Positions 3,070 to 63,740 of a stretch of 64,000 nt of DNA are shown piece by piece. Position 1 is the first letter of the stretch, and each line of letters opens with the position of its first letter. A model generated the notes under the pieces. The model was not told the DNA's origin and made no database searches. It saw only the letters and a list, made by a program, of their open reading frames with translations. The DNA lies in the IMG/VR virus record IMGVR_UViG_3300033066_000778, positions 32,001 through 96,000 of that record, one strand, 5' to 3'. The DNA is from a virus. Taxonomy: Duplodnaviria; Caudoviricetes. Both the position numbers and the translations under genes were made by a program.

Positions 3070-3078
3070 TCTGTCTCC

Positions 3079-4158
3079 TTAAGAAAAAACGTACATCCGT
3101 GGGTTATTTCCTGTTGTAACGTAAATGTACGTAGAGCCTGCTTCTTCAAATCCACACCAGTTTATGAAGTTACAATCAGAATGAGATACCGTTACAACAT
3201 TAGATGCAGCTGTGTTTTCTGTAGTATCCACAGTGATATTTACAAAGCCGTAAGAAAGTGCAGTATCACGAAGGAACCATGCTCTTGGGTTAGAGCCAGA
3301 CATATAGGAGAACGCTGTTCCTAATGGTGCTGTACCGGATCCAAAGAAAGATTCTGGAGGAGAAACTTGGTATGTATGGTCTATTGTTCCATTATCGAGA
3401 ATTTCGGCTACAACAATATCTACTGGTGCTAGCGTTGTGGAGCTTAAAAGACTAACAAAGATCCAAACATGTCCTGCGTCGAATGGATCGGCAACCATCG
3501 TAAAGTCGTTTATGACATAATCTGTTGGCGTAGCGATTCCAAAGTCCGTTAGGGTTAAGACACGTTGAGTAAAGTTCTCAGTGATATCAGGAGAGCCATA
3601 CGCCCCAGATGCGTCTAGGAGAATAAGCGTTCTTACGGTATCATTTGTAAGGACGTATTTTCCATCAGACATTAACCTTGACGGAGTATTAGGTAACTCC
3701 GGTACGGTTATTTGATAAGAGGCTAGTGTACCATTTATATCCGGTGGAGGTATAGCATTACCATTACCCGCTGTTAAACTTGAATCGGATATATCAGCTG
3801 CGTAGAAGAAGTTAAAGCCTCTTCCAAACGCAACGTATTTTCCATCTGGTCTTTTAAGAATAGTGACGTTTAGTGGCCTTGGAAGATTCGAAATCGTATC
3901 TCTAACTTCAAAAATACTTCCTGAGTCAGTAAGGACTACTGTACCTGATGTCGAGTCATTCCATCCAACAATCATTCTGGTACAGTCTTTAGAAAGGTAG
4001 ATTGCCCCAACGGTACTTTGACCATCACCGTGAACGGTAAATGGACCTCCCCCGCCTTGGGTTACCATATTATGATGACCCGCTACAGAAGGAGATCCTG
4101 GTGTATTTAGATTTACGACTGAGTAGCCGTAGCACTGTGATACTACAAACTTATGCAC
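3079..4158 (-). CDS. Hypothetical beta-rich (possibly beta-propeller) baseplate-associated protein
   Basis: 359-aa ORF, GTG start with AGGAGG 8 nt upstream; short beta-strand repeats; baseplate context. Confidence 0.5.
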   Translation of the reverse strand: MHKFVVSQCYGYSVVNLNTPGSPSVAGHHNMVTQGGGGPFTVHGDGQSTVGAIYLSKDCTRMIVGWNDSTSGTVVLTDSGSIFEVRDTISNLPRPLNVTILKRPDGKYVAFGRGFNFFYAADISDSSLTAGNGNAIPPPDINGTLASYQITVPELPNTPSRLMSDGKYVLTNDTVRTLILLDASGAYGSPDITENFTQRVLTLTDFGIATPTDYVINDFTMVADPFDAGHVWIFVSLLSSTTLAPVDIVVAEILDNGTIDHTYQVSPPESFFGSGTAPLGTAFSYMSGSNPRAWFLRDTALSYGFVNITVDTTENTAASNVVTVSHSDCNFINWCGFEEAGSTYIYVTTGNNPRMYVFS

Positions 4159-51467: not shown

Positions 51468-54400
51468 TTAATCAATCGTCTTATTTACTTCTTCGACAAT
51501 AGTTCCTTCTATTGTTTCTGTATTGTTATAAGCTTTCTGTAGAAATTCTTCTGCTTCAGTCAAGTAATAATCAGGTGACTTGGACTCTGGGTCGATGATC
51601 TCAAAAACGTTTTCAATCTTCTTACTCCAAGACTCTTGTGGCGTATACTCATCAATATACCTGTCTTTGTAGTTATCCCTGTACGCAATTACCTCAGCCA
51701 TTTCCTTCTTATTGAATCCATTTAAAACGTTCTCGATAAGGTCACCAGGGCGGACATTGGGGTAAAGTTCCTGAAGTTCTTCCTGTTTTTGCCTGAACTC
51801 TTCAAGAAGCTCAGAATTAGGATCCAACGGGTCATCTACCTTAGCTTCCCCATAACCAAATGTTCTTAGACCGAACTTAAGACTATCGGCAGTAACATGT
51901 TTATTAGGTTTCTTAGCCTTAATACCATCAGCGGTTTTAACCTTACCTTTATCTCCACCGTCTGCAACAGCTAGTTCTTTTTCCTTCTCGAATTCCATGT
52001 TTAGAACTGGATCAGGTGTACAGAGTTTTGCTCTTGTTTCGGCAGGAAGAGGGAAGATTTCGTCAAGGAGGTAATCGCCCCAAACCCAACGGTTCCATCC
52101 AAGAGTATTAGCAACACCAGCTAGGATCTCTAGGATTTGAGACTTACGGAGAAGAACATCTTCTCTTTGTCTTTCAGCTGTTTCCGAGATCGTTCCTAGT
52201 TGAACTTGGAAACGCTGTGGATCGAGGAATTCACCATGTACAATTGACCAGTGTAATTGACAAAGCTTTACGACACCTTCTCTAAAAGCTTCTTGTAACT
52301 TTTGAATCTTCTTACTAAAACGAACATCCTGTAACATTAGAGATTCTTTTGAGTTCCACCCACCAGTTTGAACACCTTCTAAGTATTCTTTTGGAATACC
52401 TAGTCCGGTTCGAATCTTATCCTTGAGTTGTTCATAGTCTTCAAGAGGTCCGATGTTTGGACTGTTTTGAAGAGGTTCTACCTTAGAGAGCGATCCAGCC
52501 CTAACCGGCCAAATAATGTCTTGTAAGAACATCGCGGGGTCAAAGTCTACTTTAAACTCATTAGTCTTAGGATCAGTAAAGTAATTCTTGTTCTTTAGGA
52601 ACTTCTTGTAATCCGCTACGAGCTGATGCGTTTCTTCAACCGATGCCTGACCTACGTCAACATAGAAAATGTTACGTTGGACCGTCCTGGCAATACGGTA
52701 TAGGATAATCATCGTGTTACCAGTCCAGGCCGATTTTCCATTCCTACGAACGTAAACGATGGTATTAGGAACTTTTACACAATAAACCATACCGTTGTAA
52801 GAAACTTTTTCGGCAGCAAAACTATTAGCCTTGGAGTATTTAATACTTACGAGATAAGACTCCTTACATGTCATTATACGTGTTTGTCCTTTTTTATTTA
52901 CGTATTCCTTACTGTAAGCTTTTCTTGTATTTACTGAAGCGGACCATCCTAGCTTCTGGGCTATCTCAACAAACTGTCCAGCCATCCTCTTGCTAACAGT
53001 AGAGATATTAACTGATTTCTCTCTAGCACAATTTTTATATTTTCTGAAATGCCCATCACCAAGAACAAAATGATCAAAGAAAATAGTGAGTTGCTCTTTT
53101 GTCGCATCCATAATTTCATCTGGAATGAACTTATCAGCTGCTTTTCCAAACTGCATAAAGTAAGGTACAACAGCCCCCCAGTTCAGATGAAAAGCATGAC
53201 CGTCATGGCTAACATCTTCGCCATTATTAATAGCATTAAGTGTAGCCTTAAATGTTTCGTAACCTTTAGAGTCTACCTGCTGGGCGATACGGAGTCCACT
53301 TGAACGTCCTTTTTTACGTGATCCATTGTTTATACAACCTTCTGAAAGGTACATTCCCATAAGCGCGCAGAAATTATCACCGCTTATCCTCCGTTCAGGT
53401 GCTCCCTTTGTCTGGAATGACATAGTCTTTCCATCACGAACGGAAACTACATCGTTTGGAATATTAGGAAATACTTTTTCTCCGATAGGAGTCCCAGTCC
53501 ATTCAGACGTAGTAGGGATTCCTACAGCGCGGCTTGTATTGCCAAGAAGTTCTTCAGCCCTAACAACGTACTCCCCGTTTGCTTGTGGCTCTATGGGGCC
53601 TACTGTGGCACATGCGGGTTTACTATTTAGCAGAATCCTGTGATTAGGCGTAACCAGTAGGTCAACAGACTTACTAGAGAGCTTAATCATATCGCCATCA
53701 TGGGGCCTGGCAACAATTTCTGTTGGTACTTGCCATTCAAATTGTTTAGTATCTGGATTTCGTGTGGCTACTTCCGTGCCTTCTTGGAGATCTTTGAAGT
53801 ATATCCATCCATCTTTTGTTAGAATCTCTGTTTCTTCGTCAAGGCACTCTAACATACTAAACGATTTCCATGCTTTACGGACATTATCAAGCATTGACTT
53901 CCCGTAAACAGATTCCTGGTCATAGGCAAGAAGTCTAAAGTGGATGAACTCCCAAGGTTTAAAGATTCCCTTATTATCAGTCGGGAGCAAACTTGCTAGT
54001 TCAGGTGCCTTAAATCCTAATAGTGAAGTAGTTTGAATACGTTCAACCCTAGCAGGATGAATGAACTGTGTATCATGGACTCCGTAAGCACCTAAGAGAA
54101 GATAGAGGGGAACGTCACCGTATTTGGCTAAATTACGGTAAACACCGTAAGCTTTAGTTTCAAGCTTGATCCTTTGGATCATTGCGTTTAGTTCGCTAGC
54201 TACAACATCTTCAGGAGAGTCAATCCAAACACGTAATCCTGTTTTACTATCTTTCTGGGCTGCTTCTTCGGCGTAGATATCGAGAGCAACACCGCATTCA
54301 GTTGAAGCAACGTCCATTCGGTCAAAGTCTCTATACTTGGAAATACGATCCTGCGAAAGCTCGATACTTCCTACATAGAGTTTACTCAGACGTTCTTCAA

Positions 54401-54545
54401 ACGTTGCTCCCGGTACGTACTTAGATTCATCAGGAGTTTGACCTTTTAGATAGCTAACCTGCTTATCAGAAAGGCCAAACAGTACCTGAAACGATTTGAT
54501 AATCGGGGTTAAAACCTGTTGTACTGGTTTGTTAAAATCGTCCAT
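51468..54545 (-). CDS. Portal protein (T4 gp20-like) containing an intein
   Basis: YGKSMLDNVRKAWK...MLE|T MIILYRIAR...RNIFYVDVG; 648 aa after splicing. Confidence 0.92.
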   Translation of the reverse strand: MDDFNKPVQQVLTPIIKSFQVLFGLSDKQVSYLKGQTPDESKYVPGATFEERLSKLYVGSIELSQDRISKYRDFDRMDVASTECGVALDIYAEEAAQKDSKTGLRVWIDSPEDVVASELNAMIQRIKLETKAYGVYRNLAKYGDVPLYLLLGAYGVHDTQFIHPARVERIQTTSLLGFKAPELASLLPTDNKGIFKPWEFIHFRLLAYDQESVYGKSMLDNVRKAWKSFSMLECLDEETEILTKDGWIYFKDLQEGTEVATRNPDTKQFEWQVPTEIVARPHDGDMIKLSSKSVDLLVTPNHRILLNSKPACATVGPIEPQANGEYVVRAEELLGNTSRAVGIPTTSEWTGTPIGEKVFPNIPNDVVSVRDGKTMSFQTKGAPERRISGDNFCALMGMYLSEGCINNGSRKKGRSSGLRIAQQVDSKGYETFKATLNAINNGEDVSHDGHAFHLNWGAVVPYFMQFGKAADKFIPDEIMDATKEQLTIFFDHFVLGDGHFRKYKNCAREKSVNISTVSKRMAGQFVEIAQKLGWSASVNTRKAYSKEYVNKKGQTRIMTCKESYLVSIKYSKANSFAAEKVSYNGMVYCVKVPNTIVYVRRNGKSAWTGNTMIILYRIARTVQRNIFYVDVGQASVEETHQLVADYKKFLKNKNYFTDPKTNEFKVDFDPAMFLQDIIWPVRAGSLSKVEPLQNSPNIGPLEDYEQLKDKIRTGLGIPKEYLEGVQTGGWNSKESLMLQDVRFSKKIQKLQEAFREGVVKLCQLHWSIVHGEFLDPQRFQVQLGTISETAERQREDVLLRKSQILEILAGVANTLGWNRWVWGDYLLDEIFPLPAETRAKLCTPDPVLNMEFEKEKELAVADGGDKGKVKTADGIKAKKPNKHVTADSLKFGLRTFGYGEAKVDDPLDPNSELLEEFRQKQEELQELYPNVRPGDLIENVLNGFNKKEMAEVIAYRDNYKDRYIDEYTPQESWSKKIENVFEIIDPESKSPDYYLTEAEEFLQKAYNNTETIEGTIVEEVNKTID
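52716..53846 (-). mobile_element. Intein with LAGLIDADG endonuclease in portal (377 aa)
   Basis: Begins CLDEETEILTKDGW, block B LLVTPNHRI, LMGMYLSEG and FVLGDG motifs, ends VYCVKVP...RRNGKSAWTGN before Thr. Confidence 0.92.
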
Positions 54546-54554
54546 ATAAATCCT

Positions 54555-57500
54555 TTAGGGCTTAATTGAGAATGGATTCAATTTATCAATATGTTCATTG
54601 AGGAGTTTAGTCTCTTCGTGTTCAGACGCGAAGTAACTATTTAGATCATCTTGTTTGTAAAGTGAATTTATGATTTTACTTGCAATATCAAGGTTTGCAG
54701 TATTAGGATGTTTTTTATTATCTGTTAGCATCGAATAAGAATTTGCTATTACTCCAGTTACCGCATCGGATATGTCTTTGCTTCCGGCACCCCCTGTAAA
54801 GTTTCTTACAGGGTGATCTACTTTAGCTTTCGCACCGGAATAATCATGAATAAGATTTAGTAATTCCATCTCTAAGATCTTGTTATATGGACACTTAACG
54901 TTATTCTTGTGTACAGCATCTCTGAATAAGACATAGGGAATATCGGTTCTATCCACCGATAGATTATCAACAGTAAAGTTGTCTTTAATCAACATCTGCA
55001 TTGGACCAGTAGAGAAGGCTTGGTCAAACGTAATAAGATGTATTTTAAACTTCATCTTCCGTAAGAAGCTAAAAAACTGCTGGATCTTTTCGTAGTCGAT
55101 CTGATCTCCTTGAGGAGCCTTGATTGCTATAGCAAAGTCAATGAAAAACTCTGGTGAATAGGAACTTATGATTTTATTTCCTAGTACGTTTGATCCGACA
55201 TTCTGCTTAATGTAAGCAACGCCACCCATTGCTATACCAGTACTATCACCACTTTTAGATAAGTCTACATGGATAGTTCTTAGCATATCTGGGTGGTACT
55301 TTGGTATTACTGCGAAACCAGCATCGAAAAAGAAATTGTTTTGTAGTACGTAACTGGAAATGCTTCTGTTTGTCCTAAGTCCAATTTCAATTTGATCCTC
55401 AAGGAATGGAGAATACCGTTCTCTATCCCAAAGGTTCTTAAGAAGCGTTGGATCATCAAACAACAGACTAGTTGGTGATGAAGAGATACCCGCAAGTTCT
55501 CTAAGGGCCGCATTTACATCGTGTTCAAAGTGACGACGGGTACTTTCTGGAACTTCAAGAATGTTAGGGCTACCTTCTGGGAAATCTTTCTCATCCTCTT
55601 CAGTAAGTATTCTGGATGATCTGGCAGAAGATCCAATGAATACCTTGAACGTCTTTCTGTTCATATCAAAGAAGTTATCCGGCTTAACGTCCCACTGAGA
55701 GTAAGAGGAGATGAAGGCATGACGATCTTGTCTAGCCACCCAACTACCTGTACGGTTAGAAAGCTGTCCATCCAAGGCTGCGATACGTGCTTCAAGGAAG
55801 TCTGACGATGTCTTTCTTGAAGAGATAACACAAAGTAACCCTGGCGTATAGGAGAGACGTTCGAAACGTGACGTGATACGATAACGAACTTGTTTGTATA
55901 GGTTTTCGGCTGAGTTCTCATCTTCGCCAGACTTAATCGTACGCTTACCTCGGAAATTCATTTCGTCCAAAATAGCCGAAACTACAGCGTAAGAAAGGGC
56001 GTGAGAGACTTTTGAACCAACTAGAATCTGTAAGCCTTGAGGTAGGATGATCTCATAGTCAGTCATATCTCGCATGTTACCAGAAGCAGCGTTATTCATT
56101 GCCTTTCTTATCTTGCGAGACTTCTTGATAGGAAATACGTTTTTGAAGTAAGGGCTTTCATTGATAATAGTCTTGAAGTCATCAGAGATAGCACCTTCAG
56201 CCTTATCAATAGAAAGAGAAAAAAGACCGAATGAGATCTTAGTAGCAGAGTCCAATGTGAAATACGCTTGAATATTACGAAGACAAGTAAGTACATGGAG
56301 CTTATACAATTGTGAAATAATAGCAATACGTGTATTATGAGATATAAACCCATTTGAAATATAGGAAGGGTCATCTTTTACTGTTAGATCATAGCAGTGT
56401 CCACGGCTAGTTTCTTTCGTAACTACAGTATCAAAGGTATACCGTTCTTTATAAATCTTCTTTAGTATCTCTGGAAGGTATTGTTCACCATATATTTCTA
56501 CTATTTTATCAAGAGCTTTATACGTGAATGCCTGTTTTCCTTTTGTTTTGACACAAACAAACATATCACGATTTTCTTTTAGCCCCAGTCCTTTACCACG
56601 GACTGCGTCTCTTACTTGGGAAACAATTTGCCAATCAATTGGGATTACTTCGTTGTCATTATGCCGCCAGGTAGTTGCTTCTCGTTCTAGTAATGCCTTT
56701 AACCGTTCAGCTTTCTTTGGATGTCTAAATCCTACCTCTTTTGCAAAGATCTCTTTAGACTCTCTACCAATTAACCGTACTGTCCAAGCACCTCTATACT
56801 TGTTACTCTTAAACTTTCTGGACGAGCGAATCCCAAAGTTAAGAAACAATAATTGAACTTGTTCCGCTAAATCCTTTGAACAAGTAGTAAATTCAATAGC
56901 ATTTCCTCGTTCATATACAGTTCCATCAGTATCAAATAAACCTCGGAGAAAGGCTCCTACAACCTCTTTAGTTCCCATACGAATAGCAATAGGTACTTTC
57001 TTCTCCCAAGATCTTCCTGATAGTCCAAGCTCTTTCCATTCCGCTATTAGTTTGGTTCCATTGAAGCTAACGCGGTGTACTATTTGTTTCGTATCTGCTC
57101 TCTGATACTTATGTGCATACATTTTAAGAGAGAGTCGTTCACCAAGAGTTATTACATGGCTTTGATATTTTTGTTCATCTTCGGCTGGTCCAAATGTTAG
57201 TTCAACTGTTGCTTCTTTTATACATCCATCACCAATAATAGCTCCCCAAAGTTCAGCTTGTTCTAACGAAATATTATAAGGGTTTTTACCCCATACATTA
57301 TTTTTGTAAGAAAGCAAAACTACATCATCTATTTCGATCTTTTCTGTTTCTTTCCATAAAATTTCTGTTCCATTAAATACTCTTAGTCTATGATTAGGTC
57401 GAGCCTCGATTTCATGTCCTAAAGATGTAAATAACTTAAATGTATCTGTCTCCCCTTCATCATGGAACTCTTCTACCTGCTTCAATCCAGACTCGGCAAG

Positions 57501-58046
57501 GACGGCATTTATTTCATTGCGCTTAGCATAAACTTCGTCAATACGTAAAACGCCTAAGTCCGTTAGAATGAATGAATTACAAGTACATTTCCCAACGCCA
57601 ATTCCTCCGCTCAAAACCCATTCGTGTATCTCATTCTTAGGGTCTAATACAAAGATAAGATCCTTTCTCCATGGAGCATAAATCCTAGTAGACATCTCTT
57701 CGCCTAGGTATTTAGGATCATTTACGAATTCTTCTGGCGTTGCAGGAGTACGAAACCAATCGGCTTCTCTTAATGCTTTGATAGCTTGAAGTTCATTGGT
57801 TCCTGAGATCGTTGCTTCTACTATTGTATTAGTAATGATCCCACGTTCTGCTGGAGTGAAAGCTTCCCAGTCAATTTCTCCTTTAGCACAACGGTCAACG
57901 AAAGCTTTCGCTGCATTTGGATTCCGTCTAAGAAGAATTTCAACTTCTGTTTTTTCAAGTTCCGGTAAAAAGAATGGGAATTTTTCTAGGTCAACCTGTT
58001 GGTCATCCTCTAGATTACTCTTCGTTGTCATCATTTGACGCTTCAC
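54555..58046 (-). CDS. Terminase large subunit containing an intein
   Basis: Walker A SGGIGVGK|T, Walker B AILDEMNF, nuclease HVDLSKSGDSTG and KDISDAVTG; true start may be the ATG at 58034. Confidence 0.92.
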   Translation of the reverse strand: MKRQMMTTKSNLEDDQQVDLEKFPFFLPELEKTEVEILLRRNPNAAKAFVDRCAKGEIDWEAFTPAERGIITNTIVEATISGTNELQAIKALREADWFRTPATPEEFVNDPKYLGEEMSTRIYAPWRKDLIFVLDPKNEIHEWVLSGGIGVGKCTCNSFILTDLGVLRIDEVYAKRNEINAVLAESGLKQVEEFHDEGETDTFKLFTSLGHEIEARPNHRLRVFNGTEILWKETEKIEIDDVVLLSYKNNVWGKNPYNISLEQAELWGAIIGDGCIKEATVELTFGPAEDEQKYQSHVITLGERLSLKMYAHKYQRADTKQIVHRVSFNGTKLIAEWKELGLSGRSWEKKVPIAIRMGTKEVVGAFLRGLFDTDGTVYERGNAIEFTTCSKDLAEQVQLLFLNFGIRSSRKFKSNKYRGAWTVRLIGRESKEIFAKEVGFRHPKKAERLKALLEREATTWRHNDNEVIPIDWQIVSQVRDAVRGKGLGLKENRDMFVCVKTKGKQAFTYKALDKIVEIYGEQYLPEILKKIYKERYTFDTVVTKETSRGHCYDLTVKDDPSYISNGFISHNTRIAIISQLYKLHVLTCLRNIQAYFTLDSATKISFGLFSLSIDKAEGAISDDFKTIINESPYFKNVFPIKKSRKIRKAMNNAASGNMRDMTDYEIILPQGLQILVGSKVSHALSYAVVSAILDEMNFRGKRTIKSGEDENSAENLYKQVRYRITSRFERLSYTPGLLCVISSRKTSSDFLEARIAALDGQLSNRTGSWVARQDRHAFISSYSQWDVKPDNFFDMNRKTFKVFIGSSARSSRILTEEDEKDFPEGSPNILEVPESTRRHFEHDVNAALRELAGISSSPTSLLFDDPTLLKNLWDRERYSPFLEDQIEIGLRTNRSISSYVLQNNFFFDAGFAVIPKYHPDMLRTIHVDLSKSGDSTGIAMGGVAYIKQNVGSNVLGNKIISSYSPEFFIDFAIAIKAPQGDQIDYEKIQQFFSFLRKMKFKIHLITFDQAFSTGPMQMLIKDNFTVDNLSVDRTDIPYVLFRDAVHKNNVKCPYNKILEMELLNLIHDYSGAKAKVDHPVRNFTGGAGSKDISDAVTGVIANSYSMLTDNKKHPNTANLDIASKIINSLYKQDDLNSYFASEHEETKLLNEHIDKLNPFSIKP
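56334..57587 (-). mobile_element. Intein with LAGLIDADG endonuclease in terminase Walker A (418 aa)
   Basis: Begins CTCNSFILTDLG, block B RPNHRL, WGAIIGDG and FLRGLFDTDG, ends CYDLTV...YISNGFISHN before Thr. Confidence 0.95.
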
Positions 58047-61021: not shown

Positions 61022-61084
61022 GTAAGCGGAATAGACTCTTTTAATTTCATGTGATTTTATTTTACTGTTATCTATTCCGCTTAC
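61022..61084. other. 14-bp inverted repeat / hairpin at distal end of tRNA array
   Basis: GTAAGCGGAATAGA (61022-61035) / TCTATTCCGCTTAC (61071-61084), 35-nt AT-rich loop. Confidence 0.75.
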
Positions 61085-61269: not shown

Positions 61270-61458
61270 AATGACGATCAGCTAGTACAATACCTGCAAG
61301 GGCGGAATGCCCCAGACGTATAATATTACGTTACCATGCTCAAACATCACTAACGAAACCAACTAATTCCGGCATAATTATATGCTTAGGCGGCATAGGA
61401 ATCACCCTACTTCGTCGTATCCGCCTCATGTACTATCCGGTGATTAACCGGCACGTAT
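61270..61458 (-). ncRNA. Unidentified ~190-nt multistem structured RNA
   Basis: Nested stems TAGTACA/TGTACTA, AGGCGG/CCGCCT, GTAGG/CCTAT, GCATA/TATGC, CGGAAT/ATTCCG, ACGTA/TACGT and a CCGGT/ACCGG hairpin; no ORF; ends approximate. Confidence 0.55.
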
Positions 61459-61466
61459 TAAGATAT

Positions 61467-61555
61467 TGGTAAGAGTGGGTGGGGTCGAACCACCATATAC
61501 CTTGTAAGGGCATCCAGCTTATAAGGCTGGGGCTATACCATTTAGCTACACTCTT
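61467..61555 (-). tRNA. tRNA with anticodon TAT (nominally Ile) and long variable arm
   Basis: AAGAGTG/CACTCTT, CCAGC-CTTATAA-GCTGG, 19-nt V region ATGCC-CTTACAA-GGTAT-AT, GGTGG-TTCGACC-CCACC, ACCA. Confidence 0.88.
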
Positions 61556-61651: not shown

Positions 61652-61734
61652 TGGACTAGGTAGGGTTACTGGCAGTACTTGCTCCCTACTCCTCAAAGTC
61701 TGAGTGACCGCGATCATTGAAATCTACTAGTCCA
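61652..61734 (-). ncRNA. tRNA-sized, non-tRNA branched RNA
   Basis: GGACTAG/CTAGTCC-A closing stem stacked on GTAGGG/CCCTAC; internal CTCA/TGAG hairpin; no T-loop or anticodon loop. Confidence 0.55.
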
Positions 61735-62375: not shown

Positions 62376-62936
62376 CTACTGAGAATTTTCTAATTGTAAT
62401 AGCTGGTAAATAGCGTAATTACTTTCTATTTTATGCCTACGCCTATGACAATTAGAGCACCGAACGTCACACTTAGCAATTTCTTTTTCTACTAATTCCC
62501 AAGTACAGTTATTTTTGGCCATACTGGAAATGTTGTACTCTTTATTTCCTTGATGATCAAATTCTAAGACTAAAGGATCTTTCTCTCCACAGTCAACACA
62601 AAAGTGTGTTTTAAAGTAAGCCAAGATATTTTTGTAAATTAAAAATTTACGATTATTACTGTAGAGCTTAGCCCTATCAATATATTTAGCTTGATTACGC
62701 TTATAGTGTATATTACCCGCTGCGTTTTGACAAGTCTTGCACACATTTTGTATACGCCCAGACTTACTATCTTTTAAGTTAAAAAATGCCCTGTCAAAGT
62801 AGCCTTTACAAGCTAAACAGATTATTTTACCATCTTCTCTTATCCTTGATGCTCGGCGCTTTTTGCTATTACATTCTCTGCAAGACTGTGCTCTTTTACT
62901 TTTTTCTTTAGTGCATATCGGACATATATTATTCAT
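62376..62936 (-). CDS. HNH endonuclease within tRNA array
   Basis: CVDCGEKDPLVLEFDH...IAKCDVRCSNCHRRRH, plus N-terminal CxxC pairs. Confidence 0.85.
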   Translation of the reverse strand: MNNICPICTKEKSKRAQSCRECNSKKRRASRIREDGKIICLACKGYFDRAFFNLKDSKSGRIQNVCKTCQNAAGNIHYKRNQAKYIDRAKLYSNNRKFLIYKNILAYFKTHFCVDCGEKDPLVLEFDHQGNKEYNISSMAKNNCTWELVEKEIAKCDVRCSNCHRRRHKIESNYAIYQLLQLENSQ

Positions 62937-62943
62937 ACAAAAT

Positions 62944-62972
62944 AATGTACACTAAAAAAAGCAAAATGTCAA
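62944..62972 (-). promoter_or_regulatory. Sigma70-type promoter giving a probably leaderless HNH transcript
   Basis: TTGACA (62972-62967), 17 nt, TACATT (62949-62944), 7 nt, ATG (62936). Confidence 0.65.
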
Positions 62973-63012
62973 GGCAGTCTCTAAAATCATATAAAGTTTT
63001 AGAGACTGCCTT
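62971..63012. other. 16-bp perfect hairpin downstream of tRNA-Asn
   Basis: AAGGCAGTCTCTAAAA / TTTTAGAGACTGCCTT, 10-nt loop. Confidence 0.75.
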
Positions 63013-63019
63013 TCTAATA

Positions 63020-63094
63020 TGGCTCGGTTGGTAGGAATTGAACCTACGACAGTTCGATTAACAGTCGAACACTCTACCACTGAGTTACAACCGA
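63020..63094 (-). tRNA. tRNA-Asn(GTT)
   Basis: TCGGTTG/CAACCGA, TTCGA-CTGTTAA-TCGAA, GCCA. Confidence 0.93.
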
Positions 63095-63102
63095 ATGAAA
63101 CT

Positions 63103-63177
63103 TGGAGCACTGAAGTCGATTCGAACGACTGAATAGCAGGGTTGCAATCTGCCCTCTTACCACTTGAGTATCAGTGC
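63103..63177 (-). tRNA. tRNA-Cys(GCA)
   Basis: GCACTGA/TCAGTGC, loop TTGCAAC, U73, CCA. Confidence 0.92.
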
Positions 63178-63188
63178 GTTATTTGAAA

Positions 63189-63267
63189 TGGGACCGGGAA
63201 CTGGATTTGAACCAGTGATCTCTAGCTTATGAGGCTAGCGTGGTAGACCAGACTGCACCATCCCGGT
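63189..63267 (-). tRNA. tRNA with anticodon CAT (elongator Met or Ile2)
   Basis: ACCGGGA/TCCCGGT, CTAGC-CTCATAA-GCTAG; lacks initiator GGG/CCC pairs; discriminator C. Confidence 0.88.
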
Positions 63268-63273
63268 ATAGGT

Positions 63274-63365
63274 ATTGGTAGCTCTAAGGGCAAAAGGCCA
63301 TGGTTGGTGAATTCAGCGTTAAGGAGGTCAACGTATGAAAAGAACAACCTTAAAAAGCTACCAAT
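63274..63365 (-). ncRNA. Hairpin RNA with anti-SD loop and anti-start-codon segment
   Basis: 10-bp terminal inverted repeat ATTGGTAGCT/AGCTACCAAT plus TAAGG/CCTTA; internal CGTTGA-CCTCC-TTAACG hairpin. Confidence 0.6.
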
Positions 63366-63381
63366 CTTTTAAACTAAGAAA

Positions 63382-63454
63382 TGGTAGGAATAGCCCTTCG
63401 AAAAGGAGAGGGGGGACATCTCTGAGGAAGAGTTTCCTAAGAGCTATTCCTACC
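63382..63454 (-). ncRNA. Hairpin RNA with pyrimidine-rich anti-SD segment
   Basis: GGTAGGAATAGCTCTT/AAGGGCTATTCCTACC-A 16-bp stem (one G-U on minus strand only); loop region has CCCCCCTCTCCTTTT. Confidence 0.6.
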
Positions 63455-63460
63455 GGGGAC

Positions 63461-63512
63461 TTACAGATTCAGTTTTCAAGGGTCCGTTGTTCGTCAACCG
63501 CGAACACTGTAA
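63461..63512 (-). promoter_or_regulatory. rrn-like boxB/boxA leader upstream of the RNA array
   Basis: Hairpin TGTTCG/CGAACA followed by CCTTGAAAACTGAAT, resembling rRNA-operon boxA/stalk sequences. Confidence 0.45.
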
Positions 63513-63536
63513 AGATGAGCCGTTTGGGTTGAGATG

Positions 63537-63740
63537 TCAAGGCTTCTTCTCAGGTTTCTCTTTTCTTTGCTTTACAAGGATATTATACGCCTCAACCATT
63601 GCTTCTAGGAGTTTTGCGTTATTTCCATAAAGTAAAATGACAGGGGTATTACTTGTATCGTCCGTATACGTCACTCCAGCAACGTAAAGCTGATCTGGCA
63701 TTTTTCTGGAACGTGGTGGTAGAACTTTAAGCTCTCTCAT
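63537..63740 (-). CDS. Hypothetical protein
   Basis: 67 aa with AAGGA RBS. Confidence 0.55.
   Translation of the reverse strand: MRELKVLPPRSRKMPDQLYVAGVTYTDDTSNTPVILLYGNNAKLLEAMVEAYNILVKQRKEKPEKKP

What the first reader, a model, noticed from the sequence alone, without database searches (positions are those of the whole stretch)
63274..63454. Tandem hairpin RNAs at the head of the tRNA array carrying anti-Shine-Dalgarno sequences: candidate tRNA-processed antisense system
Seen: two tRNA-sized units, spaced like tRNAs, each closed by a stem starting GGTAG and ending CTACC-A; G-U pairs favour the minus (tRNA) strand. Unit 63274-63365 shows CCUCC in a hairpin loop within UUGUUCUUUUCAUACGUUGACCUCCUU, the exact complement of a full initiation region (AAGGAGG-7 nt-ATG AAA AGA ACA; MKRT, also how many L34/rpmH proteins begin). 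Unit 63382-63454 exposes CCCCCCUCUCCUUUU. I found no matching target among minus-strand gene starts in this window. The same GG...CC-A closure occurs at 61652-61734. Inference: the phage may use tRNA-operon transcription and processing to release stable guide-like sRNAs that block ribosome binding sites of host or phage mRNAs. I know of no described family like this.
Basis: partly seen in the sequence, partly recalled or inferred. Interest (0 to 1): 0.85.

Follow-up and report, generated by a model that had tools for sequence, protein, structure and literature searches.

The report
Stem-closed small RNAs heading phage tRNA array
Two folded, tRNA-sized non-coding RNA modules really do sit in front of this uncultured phage's tRNA genes. 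They are new examples of the "stable RNAs of unknown function" long known from the tRNA regions of phages T4 and T5, and nothing yet shows that they silence ribosome-binding sites.

Summary
Window 63454-63382 (unit 2) and 63365-63274 (unit 1), minus strand, fold as independent stem-closed domains (z -5.1 and -5.6). They are spaced like tRNAs ahead of tRNA-Met/Cys/Asn. Like all nine tRNAs of the array, each ends in ...CCA followed by an A/T-rich trailer.

The one relative that carries the same array head (L016, a Logan contig) keeps unit 2. All five substitutions in its 16-bp closing helix preserve pairing, two of them as double compensatory changes, and the exposed C-run is unchanged. Unit 1, which carries CCUCC and the opposite-strand SD-ATG, is absent from L016 as one clean block of about 107 nt. 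It is therefore lineage-specific, and the plus-strand ORF 63335-63532 is not conserved. That ORF also has non-genic codon usage.

The anti-SD idea stays untested. The C-rich loops are predicted to be unpaired, but the best pairings to 222 phage start regions are not clearly better than chance. No host target was found and no expression data could be obtained.

The "no described family" claim fails. T4 RNAC/RNAD and T5 RNAI/III/IV are the same kind of element, though they show no sequence homology to these units. The third unit (61734-61652) is a decayed tRNA. This scan has already noted similar non-tRNA RNA arrays in other phages.

The parts
63455..63536 (-). Conserved leader between the stop of the 67-aa gene and unit 2. 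It contains TTGACA at 63539-63534, but no convincing sigma-70 -10 box at 16-18 nt.
   Evidence: 91.5% identical to L016, against 84.8% for the adjoining coding gene. L014 matches as well. The promoter scan finds nothing here.
63382..63454 (-). Unit 2: a 73-nt hairpin RNA. It has a 16-bp closing helix, two small inner hairpins, an exposed UCCCCCC run, and ends ...CCUACCA followed by UUUC.
   Evidence: z -5.05. The L016 ortholog folds the same way, z -4.6. All 5 helix-1 substitutions preserve pairing, with 2 double compensatory changes. P is 0.0015 to 0.077 depending on the substitution model.
63274..63365 (-). Unit 1: a 92-nt three-way-junction RNA closed by a 12-bp stem. CCUCC is the hairpin loop, within ACCUCCUUA. 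It ends ...GCUACCA followed by AU. It lies inside a block of about 107 nt (roughly 63269-63375) that is absent from L016.
   Evidence: z -5.61. The clean indel is seen in alignment A2. No paralog or homolog was found.
63335..63532 (+). Plus-strand ORF of 65 codons with AAGGAGG-N7-ATG. Judged not to be a gene.
   Evidence: Codon-usage score is -0.09, like shadow ORFs (-0.06), against 0.25 +/- 0.10 for real genes. No Pfam or PHROG hit. The start and SD are absent in L016 and the frame is broken there.
63020..63268 (-). tRNA-Met, tRNA-Cys and tRNA-Asn, co-oriented with the units and immediately downstream. All three encode CCA.
   Evidence: ARAGORN and Rfam. 3' ends listed.
62971..63012 (-). 16-bp perfect hairpin followed by a T-run. 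This is the likely terminator that closes the first tRNA operon in this phage. It is followed by TTGACA-17-TACATT, which would drive the HNH gene.
   Evidence: The hairpin and the HNH gene are absent from L016, where tRNA-Trp follows tRNA-Asn.
61652..61734 (-). Unit 3: a tRNA-derived cloverleaf between tRNA-Gln and tRNA-Asp. The acceptor, D-like and T-like stems are kept, the T-loop is oversized, and the central arm is degenerate. It ends ...GUCCA followed by UUAC.
   Evidence: The L016 ortholog (1120-1205) scores 39 bits on Rfam tRNA RF00005, with anticodon loop CU-UUA-GA and a 21-nt T-loop insertion. The window copy gives no hit. Only 57% identical, yet the acceptor, D and T stems are kept.
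61345..61462 (-). Conserved structured segment in the 207-nt tRNA-Ile/tRNA-Gly spacer.
   Evidence: About 86-96% identical to L016, while the rest of the spacer is 52% identical. One G-C to U-A compensatory change. The fold itself is not significant (z -1.1).
61022..61084 (-). Tail hairpin after the last tRNA: a 15-bp perfect stem with a 33-nt A-rich loop, followed by GGAAGUUUUU. It shares GGAAUAG/CUAUUCC with the unit 2 stem.
   Evidence: z -3.9. Nearly identical in L016 at 3073-3151. Weak hit with the unit 2 model, 14 bits.

Best explanation
Units 2 and 1 are non-coding structured RNA modules in the 5' part of the first tRNA operon of an uncultured phage. The record is about 154 kb, 41% G+C, with a T4-type portal and no close relative among GenBank phages. 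Inferred biogenesis: they are transcribed with tRNA-Met/Cys/Asn from the conserved leader. RNase P cuts at the 5' end of tRNA-Met, and endonuclease cuts fall in the A/U-rich trailers. 3' exonucleases then trim back to the closing helices. The product would be stable RNAs of about 75-90 nt that end at or near ...CCA. This is how the small stable RNAs of the T4 and T5 tRNA regions arise. Unit 2 is the conserved, selected member. Unit 1 is a lineage-specific insertion of the same design. Inferred functional face, with low certainty: the single-stranded C/U-rich loops (UCCCCCC in unit 2, CCUCC in unit 1), presented on a nuclease-resistant, acceptor-like helix. Shown: the folds, their position, their strand context, the CCA plus trailer ends, and the covariation and conservation of unit 2. 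Not shown: expression, the true RNA ends, and any target or partner.
For: The folds are far better than shuffles and are independent of each other. The units are co-oriented with nine tRNAs and spaced like them, with no terminator or ORF in between. All nine tRNAs and all three units end in CCA followed by an A/T-rich trailer. Relative L016 keeps the leader (91.5%) and unit 2. All 5 helix-1 substitutions preserve pairing, including 2 double compensatory changes and a new U.G that only fits the tRNA strand, and the C-run is unchanged. The units are not tRNAs and match no Rfam family. The C-rich motifs are predicted to be unpaired in both phages. Precedent exists: T4 rnaC and rnaD are annotated in the tRNA cluster, are detected as RNAs, and have no known function (PMC3014915; PMC9697503). 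T5 RNAI, RNAIII, RNAIV, RNA1 and rna2 are interleaved with tRNAs, small ORFs and HNH genes, and several are stem-closed (T5 RNAIII has a 12-bp closure around a three-way junction; RNAI ends GCCA).
Against: Only one full ortholog of unit 2 exists, so covariation statistics are weak: 113 of 500 shuffles reach the observed value, and P rises to 0.08 if only transitions are allowed. Unit 1 has no ortholog at all. The plus strand folds nearly as well. No promoter is recognisable upstream. A long inverted repeat could also act at the DNA level or purely in cis. There is no homology to the T4 or T5 RNAs.
Confidence: 0.6

Rival explanations
1. One reading: once released by tRNA processing, the units act in trans as anti-Shine-Dalgarno RNAs. 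Unit 1 mimics the 16S rRNA 3' tail (ACCUCCUUA). Unit 2 resembles the C-rich-loop sRNAs. Both would mask ribosome-binding sites of host or phage mRNAs.
For: CCUCC is exactly a hairpin loop with unpaired probability 1.0. The C-run of unit 2 is exposed, and it is identical in L016 although neighbouring loop positions changed. The phage's own genes use AAGGAG-type SDs: 26 of 218 starts against 1.35 expected. The SD-N7-ATG complement is a rare arrangement. Of the 18 AAGGAGG sites in the genome, 6 have an ATG 5-7 nt downstream, and most of the other five precede ORFs long enough to be genes.
Against: The best non-self duplex of the unit 1 loop with 222 phage start regions is -28.8 kcal/mol, against -24.4 +/- 1.9 for shuffled loops, which is marginal. 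Unit 2 is no better than shuffles. An exact scan of bacterial genomes found nothing. A degenerate scan found only generic MKRTT... signal-peptide starts with no extended match. Unit 1 is absent from the nearest relative. TAAGGAGGT occurs twice in 308 kb of both strands, about the chance number. The host is unknown.
Confidence: 0.12
2. Purely cis-acting leader elements. The options are an RNase III-type processing stem that separates upstream mRNA from the tRNA precursor, a transcript-stabilising hairpin, or a partial attenuator in front of the tRNAs. In all three cases there is no functional free RNA product.
For: Unit 2 sits at the head of the operon in both phages. Its 16-bp helix stacked on a 5-bp hairpin gives about two helical turns. 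It is followed by AUUU(C/U)UU. No terminator separates the upstream genes from the array. The tail of the array carries another long hairpin.
Against: The inner hairpins and the C-run are at least as conserved as the stem, which a bare processing stem would not need. tRNAs are released by RNase P and 3' processing without such stems. The 12-bp stem of unit 1 is short for RNase III. The large structured 'loop' and weak U-tract are atypical of terminators. Comparable RNAs in T4 accumulate as discrete species.
Confidence: 0.17
3. Unit 1 is a relic or passenger with no function of its own. It could be the remnant of an inserted plus-strand gene start, for example of a lost homing-endonuclease cassette, or a decayed duplicate of unit 2. 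Alternatively, the plus-strand 65-codon ORF is a real, young small gene.
For: Clean presence/absence polymorphism against L016. The array is visibly remodelled by HNH endonuclease insertions and by tRNA gain and loss. There is a strong SD, a 7-nt spacer, an ATG and an open frame that fills the gap exactly. Unit 3 shows that decayed tRNA-like genes persist in this array.
Against: A 12-bp closing stem, a z-score of -5.6 and a tRNA-like CCA plus trailer end are not expected of a random relic. The ORF has shadow-ORF codon usage and no homologs, and two thirds of it would be the antisense of the conserved unit 2 and leader. The unit 2 model scores unit 1 at only 6.3 bits, E 1.6.
Confidence: 0.1

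Closest known systems
Phage T5 small RNAs of the tRNA region (RNAI, RNAIII, RNAIV, RNA1, rna2, RNA2H; misc_RNA features of AY692264)
   Same: They are about 100-170-nt non-tRNA RNAs on the tRNA strand, interleaved with tRNAs, small ORFs and HNH endonuclease genes. Several are closed by a long terminal stem: RNAIII has 12 bp around a three-way junction, as unit 1 does; RNAIV has an 8+ bp closure; RNAI ends ...GCCA. Their function is unknown.
   Different: No sequence or covariance-model similarity to unit 2. rna2 and RNA1 of T5 carry a canonical T-arm, which units 1 and 2 lack. The units here are shorter (73-92 nt) and sit at the very head of an operon. The C-rich or anti-SD loop is not a noted feature of the T5 RNAs.
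Phage T4 RNAC and RNAD (species 1 and species 2 RNAs; rnaC, rnaD)
   Same: They are small stable RNAs encoded in the tRNA cluster on the tRNA strand, next to a homing endonuclease gene. They are detected in infected cells and their role is still unknown (PMC3014915; PMC9697503; PMC2330249).
   Different: The T4 RNAs lie at the distal end of the cluster and are 119-139 nt long. rnaC has a tRNA-type T-arm GGUUCGAAUCC. No homology.
C-rich-loop base-pairing sRNAs that target Shine-Dalgarno regions (e.g. RsaE/RoxS of Firmicutes; from my own knowledge)
   Same: C-runs or CCUCC are exposed in hairpin loops on a stable scaffold.
   Different: No Rfam match. No own promoter or terminator is evident. 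No target better than chance. Processing out of a tRNA operon is not how those sRNAs are made.
sRNAs and sponges derived from tRNA-operon spacers (E. coli 3'ETS-leuZ) and the tRNA-linked small RNAs of murine gammaherpesvirus 68 (from my own knowledge)
   Different: Those are a trailer fragment that binds Hfq-dependent sRNAs, and eukaryotic pre-miRNA hairpins. They are neither homologous nor structurally similar, and were not tested here.

Membership tests
Phage tRNA-cluster stable RNAs (T4 RNAC/D, T5 RNAI/III/IV type), a kind rather than a sequence family | Encoded within or next to a phage tRNA gene cluster, on the tRNA strand | tested here: met
   the units directly precede tRNA-Met on the minus strand, with tRNA-like spacing.
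Phage tRNA-cluster stable RNAs (T4 RNAC/D, T5 RNAI/III/IV type), a kind rather than a sequence family | Not a tRNA, but stably folded with paired 5' and 3' ends | tested here: met
   No tRNA or Rfam hit at E<=10, and none with relaxed ARAGORN settings. z -5.1 and -5.6. The unit 2 stem covaries.
Phage tRNA-cluster stable RNAs (T4 RNAC/D, T5 RNAI/III/IV type), a kind rather than a sequence family | Accumulates as a discrete stable RNA, matured by tRNA-processing enzymes | not testable with these tools
Only indirect support: CCA plus A/T-rich trailer, as in all nine tRNAs.
Phage tRNA-cluster stable RNAs (T4 RNAC/D, T5 RNAI/III/IV type), a kind rather than a sequence family | Sequence or structure homology to the T4 or T5 RNAs | tested here: not met
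   Covariance model R1 of unit 2 finds nothing in the T4 and T5 tRNA regions (best hit 17 bits in an AT-rich spacer).
tRNA (Rfam RF00005) | Cloverleaf with D, anticodon and T arms that scores above the gathering threshold | tested here: not met
   Units 1 and 2 give no hit. Unit 3 of the window gives no hit, but its L016 ortholog scores 39 bits against a threshold of 29. Unit 3 is therefore tRNA-derived.
Trans-acting anti-SD / C-rich-loop sRNA | C-rich or CCUCC motif single-stranded and conserved | tested here: inconclusive
   Unpaired probability is 0.88-1.0. The unit 2 C-run is identical in L016, but unit 1 is absent there.
Trans-acting anti-SD / C-rich-loop sRNA | Complementary targets at translation start regions beyond chance | tested here: not met
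   Tested on phage start regions only: unit 1 is marginal and unit 2 is no better than shuffles. Bacterial genome scans gave only generic hits. The host is unknown.
Small protein-coding gene (plus ORF 63335-63532) | Gene-like codon usage, homologs, and conservation of start and frame in relatives | tested here: not met
Y RNA / YrlA | Rfam Y_RNA or YrlA match; partner Ro60/Rsr gene | tested here: not met
   No hit at E<=10 over the array. A Ro60 gene was not searched for.
RNase III processing hairpin (T7 R-site type; from my own knowledge) | About 20-22 bp of near-continuous duplex | tested here: inconclusive
   Unit 2 has 16 bp plus a 5-bp hairpin that could stack on it. Unit 1 has only 12 bp. 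Cleavage cannot be tested here.
Intrinsic terminator | GC-rich stem, short loop, U-tract | tested here: not met
   The scan calls none at either unit. The loops are 40 nt or longer.

The most novel reading that the evidence does not exclude
The tRNA-maturation machinery releases the units as nuclease-resistant, acceptor-helix-capped RNAs. Their loops mimic the 16S rRNA 3' tail (ACCUCCUUA in unit 1) or present a C-run (unit 2). They would bind Shine-Dalgarno regions and retune host or phage translation. This would be a phage-encoded anti-SD decoy made by tRNA processing, and a first function for the old class of phage tRNA-cluster stable RNAs.
Probability: 0.1. Interest if true: 0.8.

Novelty: new member of a known kind. 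Interest (0 to 1): 0.4.

Why it matters
Small stable RNAs in phage tRNA clusters have been known in T4 and T5 since the 1970s and 1980s, and still have no function (PMC3014915, PMC9697503). This window adds a compact example with a covarying stem, tRNA-like CCA ends and an exposed, conserved C-rich loop. It also shows a natural presence/absence polymorphism for a second module. Together these give a concrete hypothesis to test (SD masking, or decoying of tRNA-end-binding factors) and simple constructs to test it with. On the present evidence, however, this is an ordinary member of a recurring class and not a new system.

Tried and rejected
- GenBank phages: no nucleotide relative, by megablast or blastn.
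- IMG/VR and JGI metagenomes: no array-bearing relative was found through MCP, TerL or the 614-aa neighbour.
- The 357-aa neighbour has no homolog among 5.8 billion proteins.
- Exact-pattern scans found nothing for the unit 2 stems, the unit 2 core, the unit 1 core or the tRNA-Met D-arm.
- A tRNA-Met T-arm pattern only hit an unrelated 24-tRNA array, L005-L007. Its spacers show some stem-closed folds but none is significant, so I did not generalise from them.
- More distant relatives with TerL about 65% identical or the 67-aa protein 40-50% identical (L012, L013, L017, L018) have no tRNA array at this position.
- Unit 1 as a paralog of unit 2: both share GGUAGC..AGG and GCUACCA ends, but the unit 2 model gives 6.3 bits, E 1.6, and BLAST finds no paralog. 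Not shown.
- L34/rpmH link of the plus ORF: no Ribosomal_L34 or any other Pfam hit even at E<=10. MKRT is a generic N-terminus.
- Reading the closures as MITE-like terminal repeats: rejected, because every unit is single-copy with its own stem sequence.

Full report
**What is there.** The window is bases 32001-96000 of a 153,958-bp IMG/VR virus record with 41% G+C. On the minus strand a tRNA array runs from 63268 to 61099, in the order Met, Cys, Asn, Tyr, Gln, Asp, Ile(UAU), Gly, Leu. It is interrupted by an HNH endonuclease gene (62936-62376) and two small ORFs. A second HNH-type homing-endonuclease gene, on the plus strand, lies just beyond its tail. The stop of a 67-aa gene is at 63537 and tRNA-Met begins at 63268. 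The 268 nt between them contain a leader and the two units of the finding.

**The folds.** Unit 2 (63454-63382) and unit 1 (63365-63274) fold far better than shuffled sequence: z -5.05 and -5.61, with 0 of 200 shuffles as good. They stay separate domains when the full leader is folded.
- Unit 2 has a 16-bp closing helix around two small hairpins and a pyrimidine-rich single strand.
- Unit 1 has a 12-bp closing helix around a three-way junction, and one of its hairpin loops is exactly CCUCC.
- Neither unit matches the tRNA model or any of the 4,227 Rfam families at E<=10, and relaxed ARAGORN settings call neither.

**Comparative evidence.** The phage is isolated.
- It has no nucleotide relatives among GenBank phages.
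- The best IMG/VR relatives have only 63% MCP identity and 68% TerL identity, and both lie on short contigs.
- One neighbouring protein has no homolog at all.

Searching with the two small proteins just upstream of the units gave three useful contigs. L014 (JGI) ends 14 nt into unit 2. L016 is a 3,187-nt Logan contig from the same run as a contig whose TerL is 88% identical. It carries the homologous array head.

Against L016 the flanking coding gene is 84.8% identical, the leader 91.5%, unit 2 81.8% and the tRNAs 84-100%. Unit 2 has therefore diverged at about the background rate. Even so, all five substitutions in the 32 nucleotides of its closing helix keep pairing: A-U to G-C, G-C to A-U, and U-A to U.G. 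L014 shares the first of these changes. The chance of this outcome from five random substitutions is 0.0015 with uniform substitution, 0.012 with a 2:1 transition bias, and 0.077 if only transitions are allowed. With two sequences the built-in shuffle control has no power, since 113 of 500 shuffles reach the observed value. This is supportive evidence, not proof. The inner hairpins and the run UCCCCCCUCUC are unchanged, while the adjacent single-stranded positions carry substitutions and a 4-nt insertion. The L016 version folds the same way, z -4.6.

**Unit 1 is accessory.** In L016, unit 2 is followed after 10 nt by tRNA-Met. A block of about 107 nt that contains all of unit 1 is missing as one clean indel. 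Its core has no exact match in IMG/VR, and the opposite-strand SD-ATG core inside it has none in the bacterial genome collection. The covariance model of unit 2 scores it at only 6.3 bits, E 1.6. Shared end motifs (GGUAGC...AGG and GCUACCA) hint at a common design, but common descent is not shown.

**The plus-strand ORF.**
- The phage uses AAGGAG-type SDs: 26 of 218 starts against 1.35 expected.
- Of the 18 AAGGAGG sites in the genome, six have an ATG 5-7 nt downstream. Most of the other five precede ORFs long enough to be genes.

The SD-N7-ATG-65-codon arrangement is therefore not trivial. The evidence still goes against a gene.
- The ORF's codon-usage score (-0.09) matches shadow ORFs (-0.06 +/- 0.16) and lies more than 3 SD below real genes (0.25 +/- 0.10). 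Neighbouring small genes score 0.15-0.32.
- It has no Pfam or PHROG match, and no L34 match even at E<=10.
- In L016 its SD and start are absent and the antisense frame is broken into fragments of 25 and 20 codons.

I reject it as a conserved gene and leave about 4% for a young, lineage-specific gene.

**Strand and tRNA-likeness.** Thermodynamics barely separates the strands. The few G.U pairs favour the tRNA strand. Context is the stronger argument. All nine tRNAs encode their CCA, followed by an A/T-rich trailer. All three non-tRNA units end the same way...CCUACCA-uuuc...GCUACCA-au and ...AGUCCA-uuac. In units 1 and 2 the 5' GGU pairs with A-C-C of that end. Either the CC is buried in the helix, or the mature RNA starts three bases in and carries a free ACCA. 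Sequence alone cannot decide this.

Unit 3 (61734-61652) turned out to be tRNA-derived. Its L016 ortholog scores 39 bits on the Rfam tRNA model (gathering threshold 29). That ortholog has a weak anticodon stem, the loop CU-UUA-GA and a 21-nt insertion in the T-loop. The window copy no longer scores and has AC-UCA-GA at the same place. The two copies are only 57% identical, yet they keep the acceptor, D-like and T-like stems through paired changes. The array also holds a conserved segment in the Ile/Gly spacer and a conserved 15-bp tail hairpin.

**Testing the anti-SD idea.**
- CCUCC has unpaired probability 1.0, and UCCCC of unit 2 has at least 0.88 in both phages.
- The unit 1 loop region reads ACCUCCUUA. 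From my own knowledge this is the 3' tail of 16S rRNA, which is why its complement is a textbook SD.
- I computed duplex energies against 222 phage start regions. The best non-self partner of the unit 1 loop is -28.8 kcal/mol, against -24.4 +/- 1.9 for shuffled loops, about 2 SD. Unit 2 (-21.2) is no better than shuffles.
- An exact 23-mer of the complement is absent from 185,579 species genomes. A degenerate SD-N7-MKRTT pattern hit 11 unrelated bacteria, mostly at starts that look like signal peptides, with no extended match.
- TAAGGAGGT occurs twice in the genome, about the chance expectation.

The hypothesis is neither refuted nor supported. It loses weight because its best exhibit, unit 1, is dispensable in the nearest relative.

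**What is known.** The claim of no precedent is wrong.
- T4 annotates rnaC and rnaD ('small, stable RNA; species 1/2') at the end of its tRNA cluster, beside the segB homing endonuclease gene. Reviews and a 2022 omics study still call their roles unknown (PMC3014915; PMC9697503; PMC2330249).
- T5 record AY692264 annotates RNAI, RNAIII, RNAIV, RNA1, rna2 and RNA2H among its tRNAs, small ORFs and HNH genes. This is the same architecture as here.
- T5 RNAIII folds as a 12-bp closure around a three-way junction, RNAIV is stem-closed, and RNAI ends GCCA.
- There is no homology to unit 2.

The units are new sequence families of a known kind. Earlier notes of this scan describe similar non-tRNA RNA arrays in other phages, with the same closest-known call. 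I checked only the T5 annotation lead myself.

**Mechanism and odds.**
- Most likely (0.6): the units are co-transcribed with tRNA-Met/Cys/Asn and freed by the tRNA-maturation machinery as stable, stem-capped RNAs. Unit 2 is under selection. Unit 1 is a newer module. The exposed C-rich loops are the likeliest functional face.
- Trans-acting SD masking specifically: 0.12.
- Cis-only processing, stability or attenuation element: 0.17.
- Relic, or a young plus-strand gene, for unit 1: 0.10.

None of these can be settled without RNA data, which the tools could not supply.

Noticed in passing
window 54555-58046 (-), 51468-54545 (-); L004:1613-3457 (-): The large terminase (1163 aa), the portal (1025 aa) and a 614-aa papain-like protease each appear to carry an intein (Intein_splicing / LAGLIDADG / Hint hits). 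TerL relatives occur both with and without the intein.
   Followed up: partly
window 61467-61555 (-): tRNA-Ile with anticodon UAU has a long (about 19-nt) stem-loop variable arm, like the Leu/Ser/Tyr class. This is unusual for an isoleucine tRNA. It scores 62 bits on Rfam tRNA.
   Followed up: no
L016:1387-1758: At the corresponding place the relative has a different tRNA-Ile(UAU), normal-sized, interrupted by a 295-nt insertion in the anticodon loop (ARAGORN intron mode). No Rfam intron family matched at E<=1.
   Followed up: partly
window 61652-61734 (-) and L016:1120-1205: The decayed tRNA-like unit 3 shows stop-codon-reading triplets at the anticodon position: UCA in the window and UUA in L016. 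The anticodon stems are poor and the T-loops oversized. The phage shows no sign of stop-codon recoding, with 94% coding density under code 11.
   Followed up: partly
window 62944-63012 and 62376-62936 (-): A strong terminator hairpin, a TTGACA-17-TACATT promoter and an HNH endonuclease gene replace the tRNA-Trp that L016 has between tRNA-Asn and tRNA-Tyr. The window phage also lacks L016's tRNA-His. The array is being remodelled by homing-endonuclease cassettes.
   Followed up: partly
window 61022-61084 (-) versus 63382-63454 (-): The head hairpin (unit 2) and the tail hairpin of the array share the stem core GGAAUAG/CUAUUCC. In L016 the unit 2 stem has changed but the tail stem has not, so the two do not co-vary. 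This may be chance or old common origin.
   Followed up: partly
L016:1765-1921: The relative has a further element of about 155 nt, closed by a 13-bp stem (AAAGUCUGUAAUA / UAUUACAGACUUU), after its intron-containing tRNA. It is absent from the window. Its interior fold is not significant (z 0.3).
   Followed up: partly
L016:2257-3069: A 270-aa HNH-type ORF call in the relative contains a tRNA-Leu(CAA) call (2740-2828) inside it. This is either a fused or mis-called ORF, or a tRNA embedded in a homing-endonuclease gene.
   Followed up: no
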